A stretch of 64,000 nucleotides of DNA, taken from sequence record NC_100327.1; one strand, given 5' to 3'. Position 1 is the stretch's first letter; each line of letters starts with the position of its first letter. The DNA comes from a phage. A model generated the notes under the pieces. That model was not told the DNA's origin and searched no databases. It saw nothing but the letters and a program-made list of their open reading frames with translations. Below are positions 15,104 through 20,525 of this stretch, one piece after another. The translations under genes and the position numbers were made by a program.

Positions 15104-15910
15104 TTAGATAAAACGCTTGAACATAGAAGGTGATGAGATTGATGGAATCACACAAGGAAGTGCTACCTCCTCTTTCTCCAGGAAATTAATCGCAGAAGCT
15201 ACACAGTCAGCCCAGTCGTCTTTTCTGTTAAATGTTGATCTTTCCCCGTTGAATTTTTCAAGTTCGGTCAGAAATGCTTCCAGAGTATCAGGATGGAAAC
15301 TGGATTTTACAATCCTTACCATTCCTTGTTGGGCAAGATTGGCAAAAGGTGAGAACCTTGTCAGTTTAGACTTGTTGGAAGGCATTGGGTCTTCTTCAAC
15401 CCTAAACCCTTCGGCGAGCAAGGATCTGGAGGAGGTTAAGAACTCACTCTTACCTGCCTGACCGGGGTCCACAGAGAATACGATTATACAATCATCACCA
15501 TCAAACTGCGCCTGTTTCCTGATGATCACATCTCGTTCACCAGCCTTTTTACAGAACTTGCCTTCCAGACCTGTGGAATACCTCCCGTCATCCACGTTCT
15601 CAGGACAATAATCACCGGACAGGTAATAAAAGCCGTCGCTATCTTTACTTACCTTAACACTGGCGGTAAAGTCAGGAAATTTATTACCGGAAGTTCTCTC
15701 GGTTCCTGCCTTATCCCATGCCCTGCAAGATACTGACCCAAGAGGTACTCTATCGGCATCACGAAGGAAAGATCTTTGAAAATAGTTTGCACCCTCAGGC
15801 TTTGCAAACCAGTTACCATGGAGAAGCTGAGCTTTTTCCAGCTCTGGTAGACCTTCGAGGAAAGCAAGGTATTCTGGGTTGTCTCTCAAACAGACAGGAT
15901 TATCGAATCC
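15104..15910 (-). CDS. terL: terminase large subunit, nuclease domain (coding segment 3 of 3)
   Basis: Frame open from 15910 to stop at 15104-15106; no ATG at 5' end (track M is TTG); AWDKAG and DDWADC nuclease-type motifs; 5' boundary approximate. Confidence 0.65.
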   Translation of the reverse strand, partial: GFDNPVCLRDNPEYLAFLEGLPELEKAQLLHGNWFAKPEGANYFQRSFLRDADRVPLGSVSCRAWDKAGTERTSGNKFPDFTASVKVSKDSDGFYYLSGDYCPENVDDGRYSTGLEGKFCKKAGERDVIIRKQAQFDGDDCIIVFSVDPGQAGKSEFLTSSRSLLAEGFRVEEDPMPSNKSKLTRFSPFANLAQQGMVRIVKSSFHPDTLEAFLTELEKFNGERSTFNRKDDWADCVASAINFLEKEEVALPCVIPSISSPSMFKRFI

Positions 15911-16883
15911 TTATATTCAAAGGTGGTCGCAACACCACCCTCCGCACCATTACGTGCTGCTGCATGTTACCATGCAGAGTAGACTATATCACCACCCATC
16001 TCAGGGTGCTTCGCTTTTCGAGCGCCATAAGCTTGCGCCCTACTCCCTCTCGGGATAGTCGTTGAACTACATTACCAATCGTAATTGTTTGAAATATAGG
16101 TGTAAGTCTTACGGTCTTTTATTCCTTTAACAACACTAAAACTTACTCCCCACTTCTTAGCTATTTTATTTACACACAAAACCCTATCACTAAGATCCTC
16201 GCAGATACCTATTATCTTGTGCTCACTTATCCTATTAGAGGTTGGCACTTTTCTAAAGTTAAACTCTTTAGAAATATCTGGGTATACTGAGCCATTCTTT
16301 ATACCACTTACAAGTGGTTGATTGACACCAAACATTTCACAAATGTCTTTTACCCTTGCACCTTGCTCTAACAGCCTACATATTTCAAGAGCAGTGGCAT
16401 CATCTAGGGACCTGTATTTATTGACATAGTCCTTTTTAAGTCCCATTTCATGAGCGTGATGTGTGTTTTCCTCAGGCGTTGTCCACTCAAGGTTCCATGC
16501 GGCGTTATTCAACTTATTACCATCCAGGTGGTTTACTTGAGTTTTCACGCTGGGATTATCATTATCAACAAAAGTCATAGCGATAACTCTATGGACTAGC
16601 ACTTGGAACTTTTTCCCGCCCTCGCACAAAGTGACCATAGCATAGCCAGTCTTTTTCTGCACATTAGGATGGAGGAATTTATTAGAATACAGACTGTAAA
16701 TTCTGCCATCGTATGTAGCACAATAATGATTGTAGCCTAAAAAGCCTAAATTTCTCATTTCAAACATCTCCCTACTACAGGTTCGGAAGGGTAATTATAG
16801 CTGCTGATTGTCCGTTTAGCAATCGGATTTTCCAGCAATTAACGAAGTTATTCGACGTGCATTTCTGCACGAAGCCACTATCA
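15911..16883 (-). mobile_element. intron-like insertion with HNH homing endonuclease ORF (candidate group I intron)
   Basis: About 970 nt between terminase segments 2 and 3; GC-richer non-coding flanks around a free-standing HNH ORF; boundaries approximate. Confidence 0.5.
16072..16767 (-). CDS. HNH homing endonuclease
   Basis: 231 aa, ATG start; NHLDGNKLNN...HH HNH motif and C-terminal DNA-binding helix region. Confidence 0.75.
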   Translation of the reverse strand: MFEMRNLGFLGYNHYCATYDGRIYSLYSNKFLHPNVQKKTGYAMVTLCEGGKKFQVLVHRVIAMTFVDNDNPSVKTQVNHLDGNKLNNAAWNLEWTTPEENTHHAHEMGLKKDYVNKYRSLDDATALEICRLLEQGARVKDICEMFGVNQPLVSGIKNGSVYPDISKEFNFRKVPTSNRISEHKIIGICEDLSDRVLCVNKIAKKWGVSFSVVKGIKDRKTYTYISNNYDW

Positions 16884-17207
16884 TTTAATGGTTGCGCCTA
16901 TAAACGAGAATGACAACGGTCTTGGCTTGATCTCCACACCCAGTCCGTTAACCGTGGTGTATTTCTCTATCAACTCTTCTTTAGAGTCTCCCCAGATAAA
17001 TTCACCGTCGCGTCGGATAAAATATCTTTTCTTACCGCATTTCTCCGGATCTGGATACCCTTCATCGTCCAACCACCATCTAACCAGTTTGGCAAGCATG
17101 TGTTCTGAATCGGGGTTACAGCTGATAACCATTCTTGATGGATACTTTGACTGAGATCGCAGACGAGACATCAGGTAGTCTATCTGCTCCCATTCGAACT
17201 GTGTCGT
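16884..17207 (-). CDS. terL: terminase large subunit (coding segment 2 of 3)
   Basis: Frame open between stops at 17208-17210 and 16881-16883; track ORF 16881..17171; VISCNPD motif-III-like sequence; boundaries approximate. Confidence 0.6.
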
Positions 17208-18087
17208 TTATGTTCGGGCAAGGTCGCTAGTCTTGCCCCGCCATTTTCAGGCAGCTGCATGTCTCCATGCAGACCAGACTATATCTTATGAATGTGCAAA
17301 TACTCTGCCGCTCTAAGAATAGTTTCCTCATCCTCTTGGAAGAAACCTAAAGCTCTGTTGCATTTATCACAAAGCAACCCTCTTACAGCACCAGTTTTAT
17401 GGTCATGATCAACACAAAAGAAATCTCTGTACCCTTGCGTCCTATACTCATCAAGAGATATTCTACAAATGGCACACTTATGATCTTGATCTGAGAGTAG
17501 ACGATAGTATTCATCTTTTGTTATGTGAAATTTCTTCTCAATCTGATAAAACTTTTCACACATCTTACACCTGTTCGTAACCAGATATACTTTACCATAG
17601 TCACGTTTTGTGTAAAAACTATCAGCGAGCATACTTTCATGACAAGATTTGCATTCAAAAAGTTCACCTTTCTTCAGCAAGTCTTGAATAAATAATGCTG
17701 CGTCATCTCTCTTAACCATATTTTTGTTTCTACGAGATCCACCATTCCTGTAGTACATATAGCATTCCTTGCATGTACCTGAGTATCCATCCTTGCTCTT
17801 AGATGATAAAAAGAAATCATCAATAGGTAGAACTCTTTGGCAATCCATACATTTTTTAGTATTACACATTCACCCTCCCGTTTCGAATCGCTTGATTCTA
17901 CGTCTTTCGACTAGTCGTTGAACGTTCATCCTCTCGGATGCTTCGCTGCGGATTATCTAAATTAACACACTGTTACCATACCTTCGATCTCTCTTCGAAG
18001 CCTCTATCATGTTACCATGACAGGTTGGTGGTGTCAATAATAAAGATTTCCCCGCAATTAGGGAGGTTTTACGAGAGCTACAAATTA
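17208..18087 (-). mobile_element. intron-like insertion with Endonuclease-VII-type homing endonuclease ORF (candidate group I intron)
   Basis: About 880 nt between terminase segments 1 and 2; structured non-coding flanks; boundaries approximate. Confidence 0.5.
17279..17869 (-). CDS. Endonuclease VII-family (His-Me finger) homing endonuclease
   Basis: 196 aa, ATG start; multiple CxxC pairs and CVDHDHKTGAVRGLLCDKCN motif. Confidence 0.7.
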   Translation of the reverse strand: MCNTKKCMDCQRVLPIDDFFLSSKSKDGYSGTCKECYMYYRNGGSRRNKNMVKRDDAALFIQDLLKKGELFECKSCHESMLADSFYTKRDYGKVYLVTNRCKMCEKFYQIEKKFHITKDEYYRLLSDQDHKCAICRISLDEYRTQGYRDFFCVDHDHKTGAVRGLLCDKCNRALGFFQEDEETILRAAEYLHIHKI

Positions 18088-18513
18088 ACCCTCATCGAAG
18101 CAAACCATGGTGTACTCAAGCCCCTGATGGTTAAGCTTATCTTGTACATACTCCATATGGCAGTATTTTACAACAGCTCCCTTTTTGCTTCTATCCCACT
18201 TACCAGTGTTCGGATCAAACCGTGGAAAAATGAACTTATGATCCTTCTCTCTGAACTTTGGCTTAATGTTTTCAGGCAGATCACTATAAATAGCTACTGC
18301 TTTAGGCCATAGTCCACCCTCACCTTCCAACTGTGGGGTTGTTCTTCGGAACATAACCACAGAGCTGTGGGGGTCATCAATAATTTTAAGTGGCATCAAC
18401 TGCAAGAGGAACGACTTGCCAGACCCTGCGGCACCGCCGATTACCAAAATATCTGCATCGTTTTCTAGGATCATCTTCTGCTTTTCAGAACACGGTCCGT
18501 AAATCTTAGACAT
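18088..18513 (-). CDS. terL: terminase large subunit, ATPase N-terminus (coding segment 1 of 3)
   Basis: ATG with AAGGAGAGAGG RBS; Walker A GGAAGSGKS; Walker B MVCFDEG followed at once by an in-frame stop. Confidence 0.75.
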
Positions 18514-19300: not shown

Positions 19301-19570
19301 TTATCGAGGCACTCGGTGGATGATTCTAACAGTAACTGCATTTTCATTCATCAAGTATGCATCTACATCTCTGTAAATATAAAACTTCTGCTCACTATCA
19401 ACAACACAAGCTACCGCCCCTTCAGAGTTGTCTTCAAAAAAGACCACCACTGCATCGCAGCTGAGTTCATGATATGACTCTCGAAGATTTACAGCCAGAG
19501 GATTGAAATCGTCACGAAAATCTACGGTATGGGTTGGATTTACACGCTCTACAATTTTAAGTGTATACAT
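19301..19570 (-). CDS. hypothetical protein
   Basis: ORF track 19301..19660 would overlap tRNA-Pro; start moved to internal ATG (MYTLKIVERV), 89 aa. Confidence 0.45.
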   Translation of the reverse strand: MYTLKIVERVNPTHTVDFRDDFNPLAVNLRESYHELSCDAVVVFFEDNSEGAVACVVDSEQKFYIYRDVDAYLMNENAVTVRIIHRVPR

Positions 19571-19616: not shown

Positions 19617-19693
19617 TGGTCTCCACGGAGTGATTCGAACACTCGACCTCCTGATCCCAAATCAGGCGCTCTACCAAGCTGAGCTACGCGGAG
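19617..19693 (-). tRNA. tRNA-Pro (anticodon TGG)
   Basis: Hand-folded cloverleaf: 7-bp acceptor with C1-G72, D-arm, anticodon loop TTTGGGA, T-loop TTCGAAT, encoded CCA. Confidence 0.75.
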
Positions 19694-19703
19694 TATTTAT
19701 TAT

Positions 19704-19779
19704 TTGGTGGCCCTGGGTGGAATTGAACCACCGTCTGGCGATTATGAGTCGCTTGCTTGAACCTTCCAGCTACAGGGCC
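19704..19779 (-). tRNA. tRNA with CAT anticodon (Met, or Ile if lysidine-modified)
   Basis: Acceptor GGCCCTG/CAGGGCC, anticodon loop CTCATAA, T-arm GGTGG-TTCAATT-CCACC, CCA encoded. Confidence 0.75.
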
Positions 19780-19780
19780 A

Positions 19781-19856
19781 TGGTGCTGATGGCAGGACTT
19801 GAACCCGCAACCTATTGATTACAAATCAATTGCACTACCGATTGTGCTACATCAGC
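19781..19856 (-). tRNA. tRNA-Thr (anticodon TGT)
   Basis: Perfect acceptor GCTGATG/CATCAGC, anticodon loop TTTGTAA, T-loop TTCAAGT, CCA encoded. Confidence 0.8.
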
Positions 19857-19860
19857 AAAA

Positions 19861-19959
19861 AGGTGCTAGGTGATGGAATCGAACCACCTATGTATTCAAC
19901 GACTACCTCGTCTATTTTCAGGATTAAAAATCCTCGCCCTTGCCAAAGGGCTTACCTAG
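19861..19959 (-). tRNA. aberrant tRNA-like element with Lys (TTT) anticodon loop and ~25-nt insertion
   Basis: About 99 nt: perfect acceptor GCTAGGT/ACCTAGC, D-arm GCCC-TTTGGCAA-GGGC, anticodon loop TTTTTAA, T-arm GGTGG-TTCGATT-CCATC; extra hairpin GACGA-ggtag-TCGTT between anticodon and T arms; 3' end ACC not CCA. Confidence 0.4.
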
Positions 19960-20057
19960 CTCAGTATGTTGACCATGTTGCTAGTCGGCGATGACGACTG
20001 TAACATTTGATAATCCGGTTCTGCTTCCGACTTTCGCTTAATTACAAGGTCAACAAT

Positions 20058-20148
20058 GTGGCGGAGAGTAATGGAATCGAACCATCATCGAGTCATCCTC
20101 AACGGGACGGTTTTCAAGACCGCTTGAGCACCATTGCTCCCTACCCTC
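20058..20148 (-). tRNA. tRNA-Ser (anticodon TGA), type II
   Basis: Acceptor GGAGGGT/ACTCTCC with one G-U, anticodon loop CTTGAAA, long variable arm, T-loop TTCGATT, CCA encoded. Confidence 0.65.
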
Positions 20149-20263
20149 CTTTATAAATTATACTGATAATGACACTGATTTTCGAGCAGTTAGTGACTAG
20201 TATAAACGACGATAAATATCAATGCCATTATCTGTATTATTTATGCATCTAAAAATATAAATT

Positions 20264-20350
20264 TGGTGGGGAGTGGTGGAGTCGAACCACCCGAGTCGCA
20301 ATGACAATAGATTTACAGTCTACACCGCTACCTCTACGGGATAACTCCCC
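20264..20350 (-). tRNA. tRNA-Tyr (anticodon GTA), type II
   Basis: Acceptor GGGGAGT/ACTCCCC, anticodon loop CTGTAAA, long variable arm, T-arm GGTGG-TTCGACT-CCACC, CCA encoded. Confidence 0.75.
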
Positions 20351-20354
20351 AATT

Positions 20355-20429
20355 TGGCACCCCGTACTGGACTCGAACCAGTGTCAACGGCTTAGAAGGC
20401 CGCTGCTTTATCCACTAAGCTAACAGGGC
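20355..20429 (-). tRNA. tRNA-Arg (anticodon TCT)
   Basis: Acceptor with two G-U pairs, D-loop AGTGGATA, anticodon loop CTTCTAA, T-arm ACTGG-TTCGAGT-CCAGT, CCA encoded. Confidence 0.75.
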
Positions 20430-20525
20430 ACTGGGTGGCTTTCTTTTACACCTTAGCCGCCAGAAAAGGTGGGAGACCATGTTTACAATATTACACTGTT
20501 AAGCAAAGTTTGTCAAGAAAATATT

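What the first reader, a model, noticed from the sequence alone, without database searches (positions are those of the whole stretch)
19617..20429. Seven-member tRNA cluster whose specificities match known anticodon-nuclease targets
The cluster encodes Pro(UGG), CAU, Thr(UGU), Lys-like(UUU), Ser(UGA), Tyr(GUA) and Arg(UCU). Several of these isoacceptors (Lys, Tyr, Arg, Thr, Ser) are targets reported for host tRNA-cleaving defences, and phage tRNAs have been reported to neutralise such systems. The set may therefore be anti-defence cargo rather than only codon-usage compensation. A ~100-nt gap (19960-20057) between two tRNAs contains a hairpin but no recognisable tRNA.
Basis: partly seen in the sequence, partly recalled or inferred. 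Interest (0 to 1): 0.5.

Follow-up and report, generated by a model that had tools for sequence, protein, structure and literature searches.

The report
Phage tRNA operon with tRNA-like extras
This is the known early tRNA gene cluster of an rV5-like coliphage: six ordinary tRNAs that mainly top up scarce host tRNAs, one of them (tRNA-Tyr) almost identical to phage tRNAs shown elsewhere to defeat bacterial tRNA-cutting defences, plus a supposed "tRNA-Lys" that is really a conserved, undescribed tRNA-like RNA and two structured spacer RNAs.

Summary
The window is a Vequintavirus (99.3% to rV5, Murica and EdH4), and the cluster is already annotated there.

- **Codon supply:** Arg(UCU), Thr(UGU), Ile2(CAU), Ser(UGA) and Pro(UGG) match the T4 tRNA specificities. 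Their codons are over-used by the phage (AGA ranks 1st, ACA 4th, AUA 5th of 61; p=0.0009).
- **Host-like anticodon loops:** five loops equal the host's. Thr differs at one base and keeps the host PARIS site UAAUCA.
- **tRNA-Tyr:** it is 97% identical to T6 tRNA-Tyr and 87% to T5 tRNA-Tyr. Both rescue phages from PtuAB nucleases (Septu, Retron-Eco7). Anti-defence by supply is credible for this gene.
- **"Lys-like" gene:** it is not a tRNA-Lys. It belongs to a phage-only tRNA-like family (28 variants; every cell of 19 core pairs paired; 10 pairs compensatory). The anticodon arm is 15-16 nt instead of 17, the "anticodon" is not conserved, and AAUACAUA in the variable region is invariant. Function is unknown.
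- **Spacers:** They resemble the unexplained stable RNAs of the T4 and T5 tRNA clusters.

The parts
20488..20516 (-). Sigma-70 promoter of the tRNA operon (TTGACA, 17 nt, TAATAT; a TG precedes the alternative -10 reading)
   Evidence: Promoter scan, (10 of 12 matches). Annotated as P(tRNA) in rV5. Conserved in L011 and L009.
20355..20429 (-). tRNA-Arg(UCU), reads AGA/AGG
   Evidence: 67.8 bits. Anticodon loop CUUCUAA is identical to E. coli argU, 76% identity overall. AGA and AGG are the two codons most enriched in the phage.
20264..20350 (-). tRNA-Tyr(GUA), of the T5/T6 phage tRNA-Tyr lineage
   Evidence: 97% identical to T6, 98% to T-even G29, 87% to T5 with an identical 35-nt block covering the variable arm and T arm, 71% to E. 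coli tyrU. Similar sequence occurs in 1,396 phage records.
20150..20263 (-). 114-nt spacer RNA; long imperfect hairpin of about 25 bp spanning 20153-20244
   Evidence: MFE z = -4.45. All 31 predicted pairs are kept in 6 variants, with one double compensatory change and several G.U/A-U/G-C switches. The TATAAT in it is not conserved.
20059..20149 (-). tRNA-Ser(UGA), class II
   Evidence: ARAGORN. tRNA-Sec model 41.5 bits, below threshold. 76% identical to T5 tRNA-Ser(UGA), which the T5 record notes can be converted into an effective amber suppressor. Anticodon loop identical to serT.
19961..20058 (-). 98-nt spacer RNA; three-helix structure spanning about 19967-20055
   Evidence: The closing helix has three unrelated sequences that stay complementary (UGUUGACC/GGUCAACA; GAGGAUCA/UGAUCCUU; GUGGAUCAUG/CAUGAUUCGC), while the interior is nearly invariant.
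19862..19960 (-). tRNA-like RNA (the 'Lys-like' gene): normal acceptor, D and T arms, 15-nt anticodon hairpin AGGAUUUUUAAUCCU, 31-nt variable region with a hairpin and the invariant AAUACAUA; A73 followed by CC then U
19781..19856 (-). tRNA-Thr(UGU), reads ACA
   Evidence: 76.4 bits. The loop differs from thrU only at C32U and the AriB motif UAAUCA is retained. ACA is enriched 3.6-fold.
19705..19779 (-). tRNA-Ile2 (CAU, predicted lysidine-modified, reads AUA), not Met
   Evidence: 77% identical to ileX against 61-62% to metT and metZ. Anticodon loop identical to ileX, and pairs C4-G69 and C5-G68 are present. 99% identical to the CAU tRNA of T-even phage G29. BASEL records annotate it as Ile(ATA).
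19617..19693 (-). tRNA-Pro(UGG), reads CCA
   Evidence: 66.4 bits. 85% identical to T4 tRNA-Pro. Anticodon loop identical to proM.
19301..19570 (-). Small ORF (89 aa) just downstream on the same strand; function unknown
   Evidence: Annotated as ORF 68 in rV5. Matches phrog_8729, unknown function. No Pfam match. In Murica a terminator is annotated only after this ORF.

Best explanation
This is one early transcription unit, driven by a near-consensus host-type promoter. It yields six canonical tRNAs, one tRNA-like RNA and two structured spacer RNAs, which host tRNA-processing enzymes would release.

The six tRNAs keep phage translation supplied. Arg(UCU), Thr(UGU), Ile2(CAU), Ser(UGA) and Pro(UGG) supplement minor E. 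coli isoacceptors for A-ending codons that this 43% GC phage over-uses. They have the same specificities as five T4 tRNAs.

tRNA-Tyr, and possibly tRNA-Thr, also replenish pools that host defence nucleases deplete: PtuAB of Septu and Retron-Eco7 for Tyr, and PARIS AriB for Thr. The protection comes from extra supply, not from cleavage-resistant anticodon loops.

The seventh gene is not a tRNA-Lys. It is an L-shaped tRNA-like RNA with a shortened anticodon hairpin, and most likely does not decode. Its role is unknown.

Shown: gene identities, structures, covariation, codon bias and sequence identities. Inferred: expression, processing, and every functional role.
For: Gene calls.
Promoter.
Codon bias: phage/host ratios are AGA 5.2x (rank 1 of 61), AGG 4.4x, ACA 3.6x, AUA 2.9x, UCA 1.7x, UAC 1.5x and CCA 1.3x. 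Rank test on the six cognate codons gives p=0.0009.
Same five specificities as T4.
Ile2 identity.
tRNA-Tyr: 97% to T6, 87% to T5, same variable arm. T6 and T5 tRNA-Tyr rescue phages from Septu and Retron-Eco7, and even E. coli tRNA-Tyr rescues when expressed from the strong phage promoter (PMC13096335, PMC11555353).
tRNA-like family: every cell of 19 core pairs is paired in 28 sequences, 10 pairs show double changes, and slid controls reach only 33-48%. The anticodon arm is 15-16 nt in every member and the loop triplet is not conserved. The tertiary pair G19:C56 switches to U19:A56 in 7 of 28. The covariance model separates the family (103-120 bits) from ordinary tRNAs (31 bits or less).
Spacer RNAs.
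Against: No expression, processing or aminoacylation data exist for any of these RNAs.
Codon usage was computed from greedy ATG-start ORFs of this window and from one 50-kb sample of E. coli K-12, without separating early from late genes.
CCA, UAC and UAU are only 1.3-1.5x enriched, so codon compensation explains Pro and Tyr weakly.
A natural Vequintavirus (V18) lacks Tyr, Ser, the tRNA-like RNA and Pro, so these genes are dispensable on some hosts.
The tRNA-like RNA does carry UUU and A73, the nominal LysRS identity elements, and Lys codons are about 1.9x more frequent in the phage. A weak Lys-decoding role is therefore not excluded.
Confidence: 0.6

Rival explanations
1. Pure codon compensation: all six tRNAs exist only to match the phage's AT-rich codon usage to the host tRNA pool, and any anti-defence effect is incidental.
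For: The cognate codons are over-represented. The anticodon loops are identical to the host's. Five specificities match the T4 set.
Against: Tyr shows no synonymous-codon bias (0.50 against 0.48) and E. coli has three tRNA-Tyr genes (own knowledge). Yet this tRNA-Tyr lineage is near-identical across unrelated phage families (1,396 records; 97% to T6), and it has demonstrated anti-PtuAB activity (PMC11555353, PMC13096335).
Confidence: 0.22
2. One reading: the set is mainly anti-defence cargo, chosen because Lys, Tyr, Arg, Thr and Ser are nuclease targets, with cleavage-resistant phage variants.
For: Lys, Thr and Tyr are validated targets (PMC11464382, PMC12409363, PMC11555353). The operon has a strong promoter. 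The Tyr and Ile2 genes were recently exchanged between phage families.
Against: No functional tRNA-Lys is present. There are no escape substitutions in the anticodon loops, and Thr keeps UAAUCA. There is no tRNA-Asn, which PARIS evasion also needs in T5 (PMC12409363). In the papers read here, many different tRNAs are reported as targets of one nuclease or another, so overlap with a target list discriminates poorly.
Confidence: 0.1
3. The 99-nt gene is a working, if unusual, class-II-like tRNA-Lys(UUU) that helps decode the phage's abundant Lys codons.
For: Rfam's tRNA model aligns a UUUUUAA loop. A73 is present. BASEL records call it tRNA-Lys. AAG is enriched 3.7x and total Lys about 1.9x.
Against: The arm is 15 nt, so a 7-nt loop leaves only 4 bp. 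The closing U-A pair covaries with C-G in relatives. Orthologues carry UAU, UCC, GCC or UCA in loops of 5-7 nt. CCA is not encoded here. The constrained parts are the variable-region flanks, not the anticodon.
Confidence: 0.08

Closest known systems
Phage T4 tRNA gene cluster (eight tRNAs plus stable RNAs rnaC and rnaD)
   Same: A compact early tRNA operon in a virulent coliphage. Five shared specificities: Arg UCU, Ile CAU, Thr UGU, Ser UGA, Pro UGG. It contains extra structured or tRNA-like RNAs of unknown function. Individual tRNAs are 68-85% identical.
   Different: No Gln, Leu or Gly here, and Tyr is added. There is no segB homing endonuclease inside the cluster. rnaC and rnaD show no sequence or covariance-model similarity to the three extra RNAs.
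T5 and T6 tRNA-Tyr, which counter Retron-Eco7 and Septu PtuAB (PMC11555353, PMC13096335)
   Same: 84/87 identity to T6 and 87% to T5, with an identical variable arm (GUC-AUUGC-GAC) and T arm. Expressed from a strong promoter.
   Different: Never tested in a Vequintavirus. The three differences from T6 lie in the anticodon stem. No SegB-type amplification system lies next to it.
T5 tRNA-Lys(UUU), Thr(UGU) and Asn(GUU), which neutralise PARIS (PMC11464382, PMC12409363)
   Same: A Thr(UGU) gene is present. The tRNA-like RNA carries UAAUCC, which resembles the AriB site with the partly protective A41C change.
   Different: The window's Thr has the host-type UAAUCA, not T5's UAAGCA. There is no genuine tRNA-Lys and no tRNA-Asn.
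T5 'tRNA-like stable RNAs with unknown functions' (RNA1, RNA2, RNA3) and the 3' domain of T4 rnaC
   Same: tRNA-like acceptor and T arms with aberrant middle parts, embedded in a phage tRNA cluster. Annotation tools also mislabel the rnaC 3' domain as tRNA-Lys(ttt).
   Different: No homology was detected: the model gives 8.7 bits on the rnaC-like RNA of T-even phage G29 (L082) and no hit to the T4 rnaC/rnaD or T5 stable-RNA coordinates. The family here has its own signature: a 15-16-nt anticodon arm, GAAAA...hairpin...AAUACAUA, and usually U73-CCA.

Membership tests
Canonical decoding tRNA (applied to the 99-nt gene) | Cloverleaf with a 7-bp acceptor stem, D arm, T arm and the elbow tertiary pairs | tested here: met
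   Every cell of the 19 core pairs is paired in 28 sequences, and 10 pairs show compensatory changes. G18/U55 are invariant and G19:C56 covaries to U19:A56.
Canonical decoding tRNA (applied to the 99-nt gene) | 17-nt anticodon arm: 5-bp stem plus 7-nt loop | tested here: not met
   The arm is 15 or 16 nt in all 28 members. The window's AGGAUUUUUAAUCCU gives 5 bp + 5 nt, or 4 bp + 7 nt.
tRNA-Lys(UUU) | UUU anticodon and A73 conserved among orthologues | tested here: not met
   UUU and A73 occur only in the Vequintavirus group. Avunavirus has UAU with U/C73. Seunavirus-like members have (U/G)CC with U73. Henunavirus and the Schitoviridae copy have UCA with U73.
tRNA-Lys(UUU) | Charged by LysRS and decodes AAA/AAG | not testable with these tools
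   Needs aminoacylation and suppression assays.
tRNA-Ile2 (lysidine type), applied to the CAU gene | CAU anticodon in an ileX-like body, with the acceptor pairs C4-G69 and C5-G68 that TilS uses to reject tRNA-Met (own knowledge) | tested here: met
   77% identical to ileX against 61-62% to metT and metZ, with an identical loop and both pairs present.
Codon-compensating phage tRNA set | Cognate codons over-represented in the phage relative to the host | tested here: met
   Ranks 1, 4, 5, 14, 17 and 24 of 61; one-sided Mann-Whitney p=0.0009. The effect is weak for CCA and UAC.
Nuclease-resistant phage tRNAs (anticodon-loop escape variants, PMC10264068) | Substitutions relative to the host isoacceptor at or near the cleavage site | tested here: not met
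   Loops 32-38 are identical to the host's for Pro, Ile2, Ser, Tyr and Arg. Thr has only C32U, and U36AAUCA41 is unchanged.
Anti-PtuAB phage tRNA-Tyr (T5/T6 type) | Sequence membership in the experimentally tested lineage | tested here: met
   97% to T6, 87% to T5, with the variable arm and T arm identical.
Anti-PtuAB phage tRNA-Tyr (T5/T6 type) | Rescues infection on Septu or Retron-Eco7 hosts | not testable with these tools
   Needs plaque assays with deletion and complementation.
Phage tRNA-cluster stable RNAs (T4 rnaC/rnaD, T5 RNA1-3 and others) | Structured non-tRNA RNA encoded between tRNA genes | tested here: met
   Covariation supports structure in the 99-nt, 98-nt and 114-nt elements.
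Phage tRNA-cluster stable RNAs (T4 rnaC/rnaD, T5 RNA1-3 and others) | Sequence or structure homology to the T4 or T5 RNAs | tested here: not met
   Global alignments of the 99-nt, 98-nt and 114-nt RNAs against T4 rnaC/rnaD reach only 57-64% identity, and the T5 RNAs lack the AAUACAUA motif. The model gives no hit to their coordinates and 8.7 bits on the rnaC-like RNA of G29. The two spacers were not compared with the T5 stable RNAs.

The most novel reading that the evidence does not exclude
The 99-nt RNA may belong to a phage-specific class of non-decoding tRNA mimics. These would keep a perfect tRNA elbow and acceptor end but use a shortened anticodon hairpin and a conserved variable-region motif to bind a host or phage protein. 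One candidate role is as a decoy or inhibitor of tRNA-targeting immune enzymes. In the E. coli-infecting genera the hairpin would have been remodelled to imitate tRNA-Lys(UUU): GAUUUUUAAUCC against host GACUUUUAAUCA, 10 of 12 bases, including the AriB site UAAUC. The family persists in phages that keep only one ordinary tRNA within the ~12-13 kb held around it, and it occurs in an unrelated N4-like phage. Both facts would fit a function that is independent of translation supply.
Probability: 0.12. Interest if true: 0.8.

Novelty: new member of a known kind. Interest (0 to 1): 0.42.

Why it matters
The cluster itself is ordinary and already annotated. Three points are of some use.

1. The anti-defence reading can be narrowed to one well-founded candidate. 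That candidate is tRNA-Tyr, near-identical to the tested T6 and T5 genes. It gives a cheap, direct experiment in the BASEL Vequintavirus phages.

2. The gene that databases variously call tRNA-Lys, tRNA-OTHER, tRNA-TERM or nothing at all is a coherent, strongly constrained tRNA-like family. It is found across Vequintavirinae and in one Schitoviridae phage. Codon-usage and tRNA-repertoire studies that count it as Lys or as a suppressor are miscounting.

3. Together with the two structured spacers, it adds a third independent case, after T4 and T5, of unexplained stable RNAs riding in phage tRNA operons. That question has been open for about 50 years.

Tried and rejected
- **ARAGORN's four-base anticodon 'atcc'.** It rests on pairing AUUUU with the downstream AAAAU. 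That pairing is not possible in Avunavirus or Seunavirus copies, so it is an artefact.
- **tRNA-Sec or opal-suppressor reading of the family.** Some records say tRNA-TERM or sup(tca). The acceptor/T configuration is 7/5, not 8/5. The tRNA-Sec model gave no match to the 99-nt gene in the window at E up to 5. The UCA triplet is confined to one subgroup and follows A33.
- **Homology of the three extra RNAs to T4 rnaC/rnaD.** None found. Only the 99-nt RNA was compared with the T5 stable RNAs, also without a match.
- **A bacterial origin.** Two scans of 185,579 species genomes for the family's conserved 22-mer found nothing.
- **An internal promoter in the 114-nt spacer (TCGAAA-17-TATAAT).** The -10 hexamer is TGTAAT or TGTTGT in relatives, while base pairing is kept.
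- **Neighbouring ORFs as clues.** They match PHROGs of unknown function and have no Pfam hits.
- **Literature on Vequintavirus tRNAs and defence.** Nothing direct. One paper notes only that Retron-Eco2 defends against Vequintavirinae.
- **BLAST of the two spacers against other Vequintavirinae genera.** Matches only within rV5-type clusters.
Full report
**Observation.** ARAGORN finds seven genes on the minus strand at exactly the reported limits:
- Pro(UGG) 19617-19693
- CAU 19705-19779
- Thr(UGU) 19781-19856
- a 99-nt 'tRNA-???' 19862-19960
- Ser(UGA) 20059-20149
- Tyr(GUA) 20264-20350
- Arg(UCU) 20355-20429

Rfam's tRNA model passes threshold for six of them. Ser is class II and is seen only by ARAGORN and, below threshold, by the tRNA-Sec model. 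Two gaps remain: 98 nt (19961-20058) and 114 nt (20150-20263).

**Source and prior knowledge.** The region is 99.3% identical to Vequintavirus phages EdH4, Murica, rV5 and the BASEL isolates. The cluster is annotated in those records, with a sigma-70 promoter P(tRNA) upstream of tRNA-Arg in rV5. Annotators disagree on two genes. The CAU tRNA is called Met or Ile. The 99-nt gene is omitted in rV5, called tRNA-OTHER in Murica, tRNA-Lys in BASEL records and tRNA-TERM elsewhere.

**The six canonical tRNAs.** Compared with E. coli K-12 genes fetched, they are 68-77% identical to the host isoacceptors.
- The CAU gene is an Ile2 type. It is 77% identical to ileX against 61-62% to metT and metZ. Its anticodon stem-loop matches ileX and it has C4-G69 and C5-G68, the pairs TilS uses to tell tRNA-Ile2 from tRNA-Met (own knowledge).
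- Anticodon loops (positions 32-38) are identical to the host's for Pro, Ile2, Ser, Tyr and Arg. Thr differs only by C32U.
- Five of the six specificities are those of T4 tRNAs (Arg UCU, Ile CAU, Thr UGU, Ser UGA, Pro UGG).
- Identity to phage counterparts is uneven. Tyr is 97% identical to T6, 98% to T-even phage G29 and 87% to T5. Ile2 is 99% identical to G29 but only 70% to T6. The other four are 64-85% identical to T4, G29, T5 or (Thr and Arg) T6.
- Tyr and Ile2 have therefore moved recently between unrelated coliphage families. Sequence similar to the Tyr gene is found in 1,396 phage records.

**Codon usage.** I compared 95 non-overlapping ORFs of the window (16,492 codons; 43.1% GC) with 47 ORFs from a 50-kb K-12 sample. 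Phage versus host, per thousand codons:

| Codon | Phage | Host | Ratio | Rank of 61 |
|---|---|---|---|---|
| AGA | 12.4 | 2.4 | 5.2x | 1 |
| AGG | 5.2 | 1.2 | 4.4x | 2 |
| AAG | 30.5 | 8.3 | 3.7x | 3 |
| ACA | 18.0 | 5.0 | 3.6x | 4 |
| AUA | 9.3 | 3.2 | 2.9x | 5 |
| UCA | 10.1 | 6.0 | 1.7x | 14 |
| UAC | 20.1 | 13.1 | 1.5x | 17 |
| CCA | 10.5 | 7.9 | 1.3x | 24 |

The six cognate codons rank 1, 4, 5, 14, 17 and 24 (one-sided Mann-Whitney p=0.0009). The host tRNAs for AGA, AUA, ACA, UCA and CCA are minor species encoded by one or two genes each (own knowledge). Codon compensation explains Arg, Thr and Ile2 well, Ser moderately, and Pro and Tyr weakly.

**Defence determinants.**
[quoted passage not shown] T5 escapes with U39A and A41C in its tRNA-Lys. 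Lys, Thr and Asn tRNAs together are needed for full rescue (PMC11464382, PMC12409363). The window's Thr has AUUGA-UUUGUAA-UCAAU, so the host motif UAAUCA is intact. T5 Thr has UAAGCA and T4 Thr has UAAUGA. There is no tRNA-Asn and, as shown below, no real tRNA-Lys.
- *PtuAB* of Retron-Eco7 and Septu depletes tRNA-Tyr by cutting its variable arm. T5 tRNA-Tyr rescues infection, and so does E. coli tRNA-Tyr when driven by the strong phage promoter. T6 escapes Septu by amplifying its tRNA-Tyr gene, although that tRNA is itself cleaved (PMC11555353, PMC13096335). The window's tRNA-Tyr differs from T6's at three anticodon-stem positions only. It shares with T5 an identical 35-nt block covering the variable arm (GUC-AUUGC-GAC) and T arm.
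- The anti-defence reading is thus well founded for Tyr, through supply. It is possible for Thr. For the others it has no support from the sequence.

**The 'Lys-like' gene is a distinct tRNA-like family.**
- *Where it occurs.* Homologues were collected from Avunavirus, Seunavirus (PVP-SE1, SSE121, KE22, GAP31, 4MG), Klebsiella and Raoultella relatives, Henunavirus (Hena1, pEp_SNUABM_01), metagenomes and one Schitoviridae phage, UTK0002. ARAGORN does not call most of them.
- *Cloverleaf.* In an alignment of 28 distinct sequences the acceptor, D, outer anticodon and T helices are paired in all 532 cells. Ten of 19 pairs carry compensatory double changes. Slid controls reach 33-48% pairing.
- *Elbow.* The tertiary elbow pair covaries perfectly: G19:C56 in 21 sequences and U19:A56 in 7, with G18 and U55 invariant. 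The RNA therefore folds as an L-shaped tRNA.
- *Anticodon arm.* It is 15-16 nt in every member, where 17 is canonical. The forms are 5 bp + 5 nt (UUUUA here; UUAUA; AUCAA), 5 bp + 6 nt (CAUCCA, CAGCCA, CUUCCA, CCUCCA), or 4 bp + CAUCAAA with a C.A apposition that becomes U-A in two variants. The triplet read as an anticodon is UUU, UAU, UCC, GCC or UCA depending on genus.
- *What is conserved instead.* The variable region is 31-40 nt: GAAAA, then a hairpin, then the invariant AAUACAUA abutting the T stem. The hairpin has either free covarying sequence or a 3-bp stem closing a conserved GAACUAACAGUAC loop.
- *3' end.* Twenty-one of 28 encode U73-CCA. The rV5 group has A73-CC then U, or A73-CA then U. 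Avunavirus has U/C73-ACA.
- *Separation from ordinary tRNAs.* A covariance model scores family members at 103-120 bits, one per locus searched, and ordinary tRNAs at 31 bits or less.
- *Distribution.* The motif is absent from 185,579 bacterial species genomes. In one metagenomic lineage (L034, L042) ARAGORN finds only one ordinary tRNA, Arg(UCU), in the ~12-13 kb held around the element.
- *Constraint within Vequintavirus.* The few substitutions seen keep base pairing. This is a constrained gene, not a decaying pseudogene.
- *Dispensability.* Phage V18 has lost it, together with Tyr, Ser and Pro, through a deletion.

**The spacers.** In the 98-nt gap the closing helix has three unrelated but complementary sequence versions in the window, L011 and L074. 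The interior and two inner hairpins are almost invariant. Three pairs show double compensatory changes. The 114-nt gap forms a hairpin of about 25 bp (z = -4.45). All predicted pairs are kept in six variants, including a C-G to U-A switch and G.U, A-U and G-C alternation at one pair. Unconstrained spacer next to these elements has diverged freely. Both RNAs would be released by ordinary tRNA 5' and 3' processing (inference). By BLAST they are confined to rV5-type clusters.

**Comparison with known systems.** T4 carries rnaC and rnaD in its tRNA cluster. The T5 record lists eight stable RNAs, including 'tRNA-like stable RNA with unknown functions' RNA1 and RNA2 and 'putative tRNA-like RNA' RNA3, all in its tRNA region. 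These are functional analogues at most, since no homology was detected; the two spacers were not checked against the T5 RNAs. In T-even phage G29 the 3' domain of the rnaC homologue is also mis-annotated as a 94-nt tRNA-Lys(ttt).

**Verdict.** The cluster is known. The anti-defence interpretation is partly supported: strong for Tyr by homology to tested genes, and weak or negative for the rest. Its Lys component rests on a mis-call. The most interesting by-product is the tRNA-like family and the two structured spacers, whose functions remain unknown. A decoy or protein-binding role is a speculation I put at about 12%.

**Limits.** There are no expression or biochemical data. Codon tables are approximate. 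The spacer covariation rests on six sequences. Identity rules for TilS, LysRS and GlyRS are taken from my own knowledge.

Noticed in passing
window 19862-19960 (-); L004:1497-1605, L005:1501-1600, L012:8694-8802, L047:1201-1308, L049:301-408 and others: A conserved phage-only tRNA-like RNA family found across Vequintavirinae genera and in one Schitoviridae (N4-like) Salmonella phage. It has a short anticodon arm, an invariant AAUACAUA and usually U73-CCA. Public records label it inconsistently: Lys, OTHER, TERM/sup(tca), 'hypothetical protein', or nothing.
   Followed up: yes
window 19961-20058 (-): The 98-nt spacer is a three-helix RNA. Its closing helix has been completely re-written in relatives while staying complementary.
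   Followed up: partly
It could be a processing site or a small RNA.
   Followed up: partly
L007:1376-1700 (Escherichia phage V18): A natural deletion variant of the cluster. The 5' part of tRNA-Tyr is fused to the last 42 nt of the tRNA-like RNA. Tyr, Ser, the tRNA-like RNA and Pro are lost; Arg, Thr and the CAU tRNA are kept.
   Followed up: partly
L082:2569-2662 (T-even phage vB_EcoM_G29); T4 rnaC at L053:1409-1547: The 94-nt 'tRNA-Lys(ttt)' annotated in a T-even phage is the tRNA-like 3' domain of the T4 species-1 RNA (rnaC) homologue. [quoted passage not shown] This is a second, unrelated phage tRNA-like RNA that tools read as Lys.
   Followed up: partly
window 19705-19779 and 20264-20350 versus L082: The Ile2(CAU) and Tyr genes are 99% and 98% identical to those of a Tequatrovirus, while the other four tRNAs are only 66-79% identical. 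This indicates recent exchange of individual tRNA genes between unrelated phage families.
   Followed up: partly
window about 15668-18513 (-): In rV5 the large terminase gene just downstream is annotated as joined from three pieces, with an HNH homing endonuclease ORF inside. Murica annotates a single terminase CDS. The window's ORFs (16072-16767, 16881-17171, 17279-17869, 18085-18513) look fragmented in the same way. Rfam reported no intron there.
   Followed up: no
search hits H7-H10, H26-H27, H36-H41 (records MG0656xx): About 18 records named 'Campylobacter phage' are 99-100% identical to this E. coli Vequintavirus region. They are unannotated and are probably mislabelled or co-isolated coliphages.
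   Followed up: no
window 20430-20487 (-): The 58-nt leader between the promoter and tRNA-Arg contains a conserved hairpin (CACCUU...AAGGUG). Its role was not examined.
   Followed up: no
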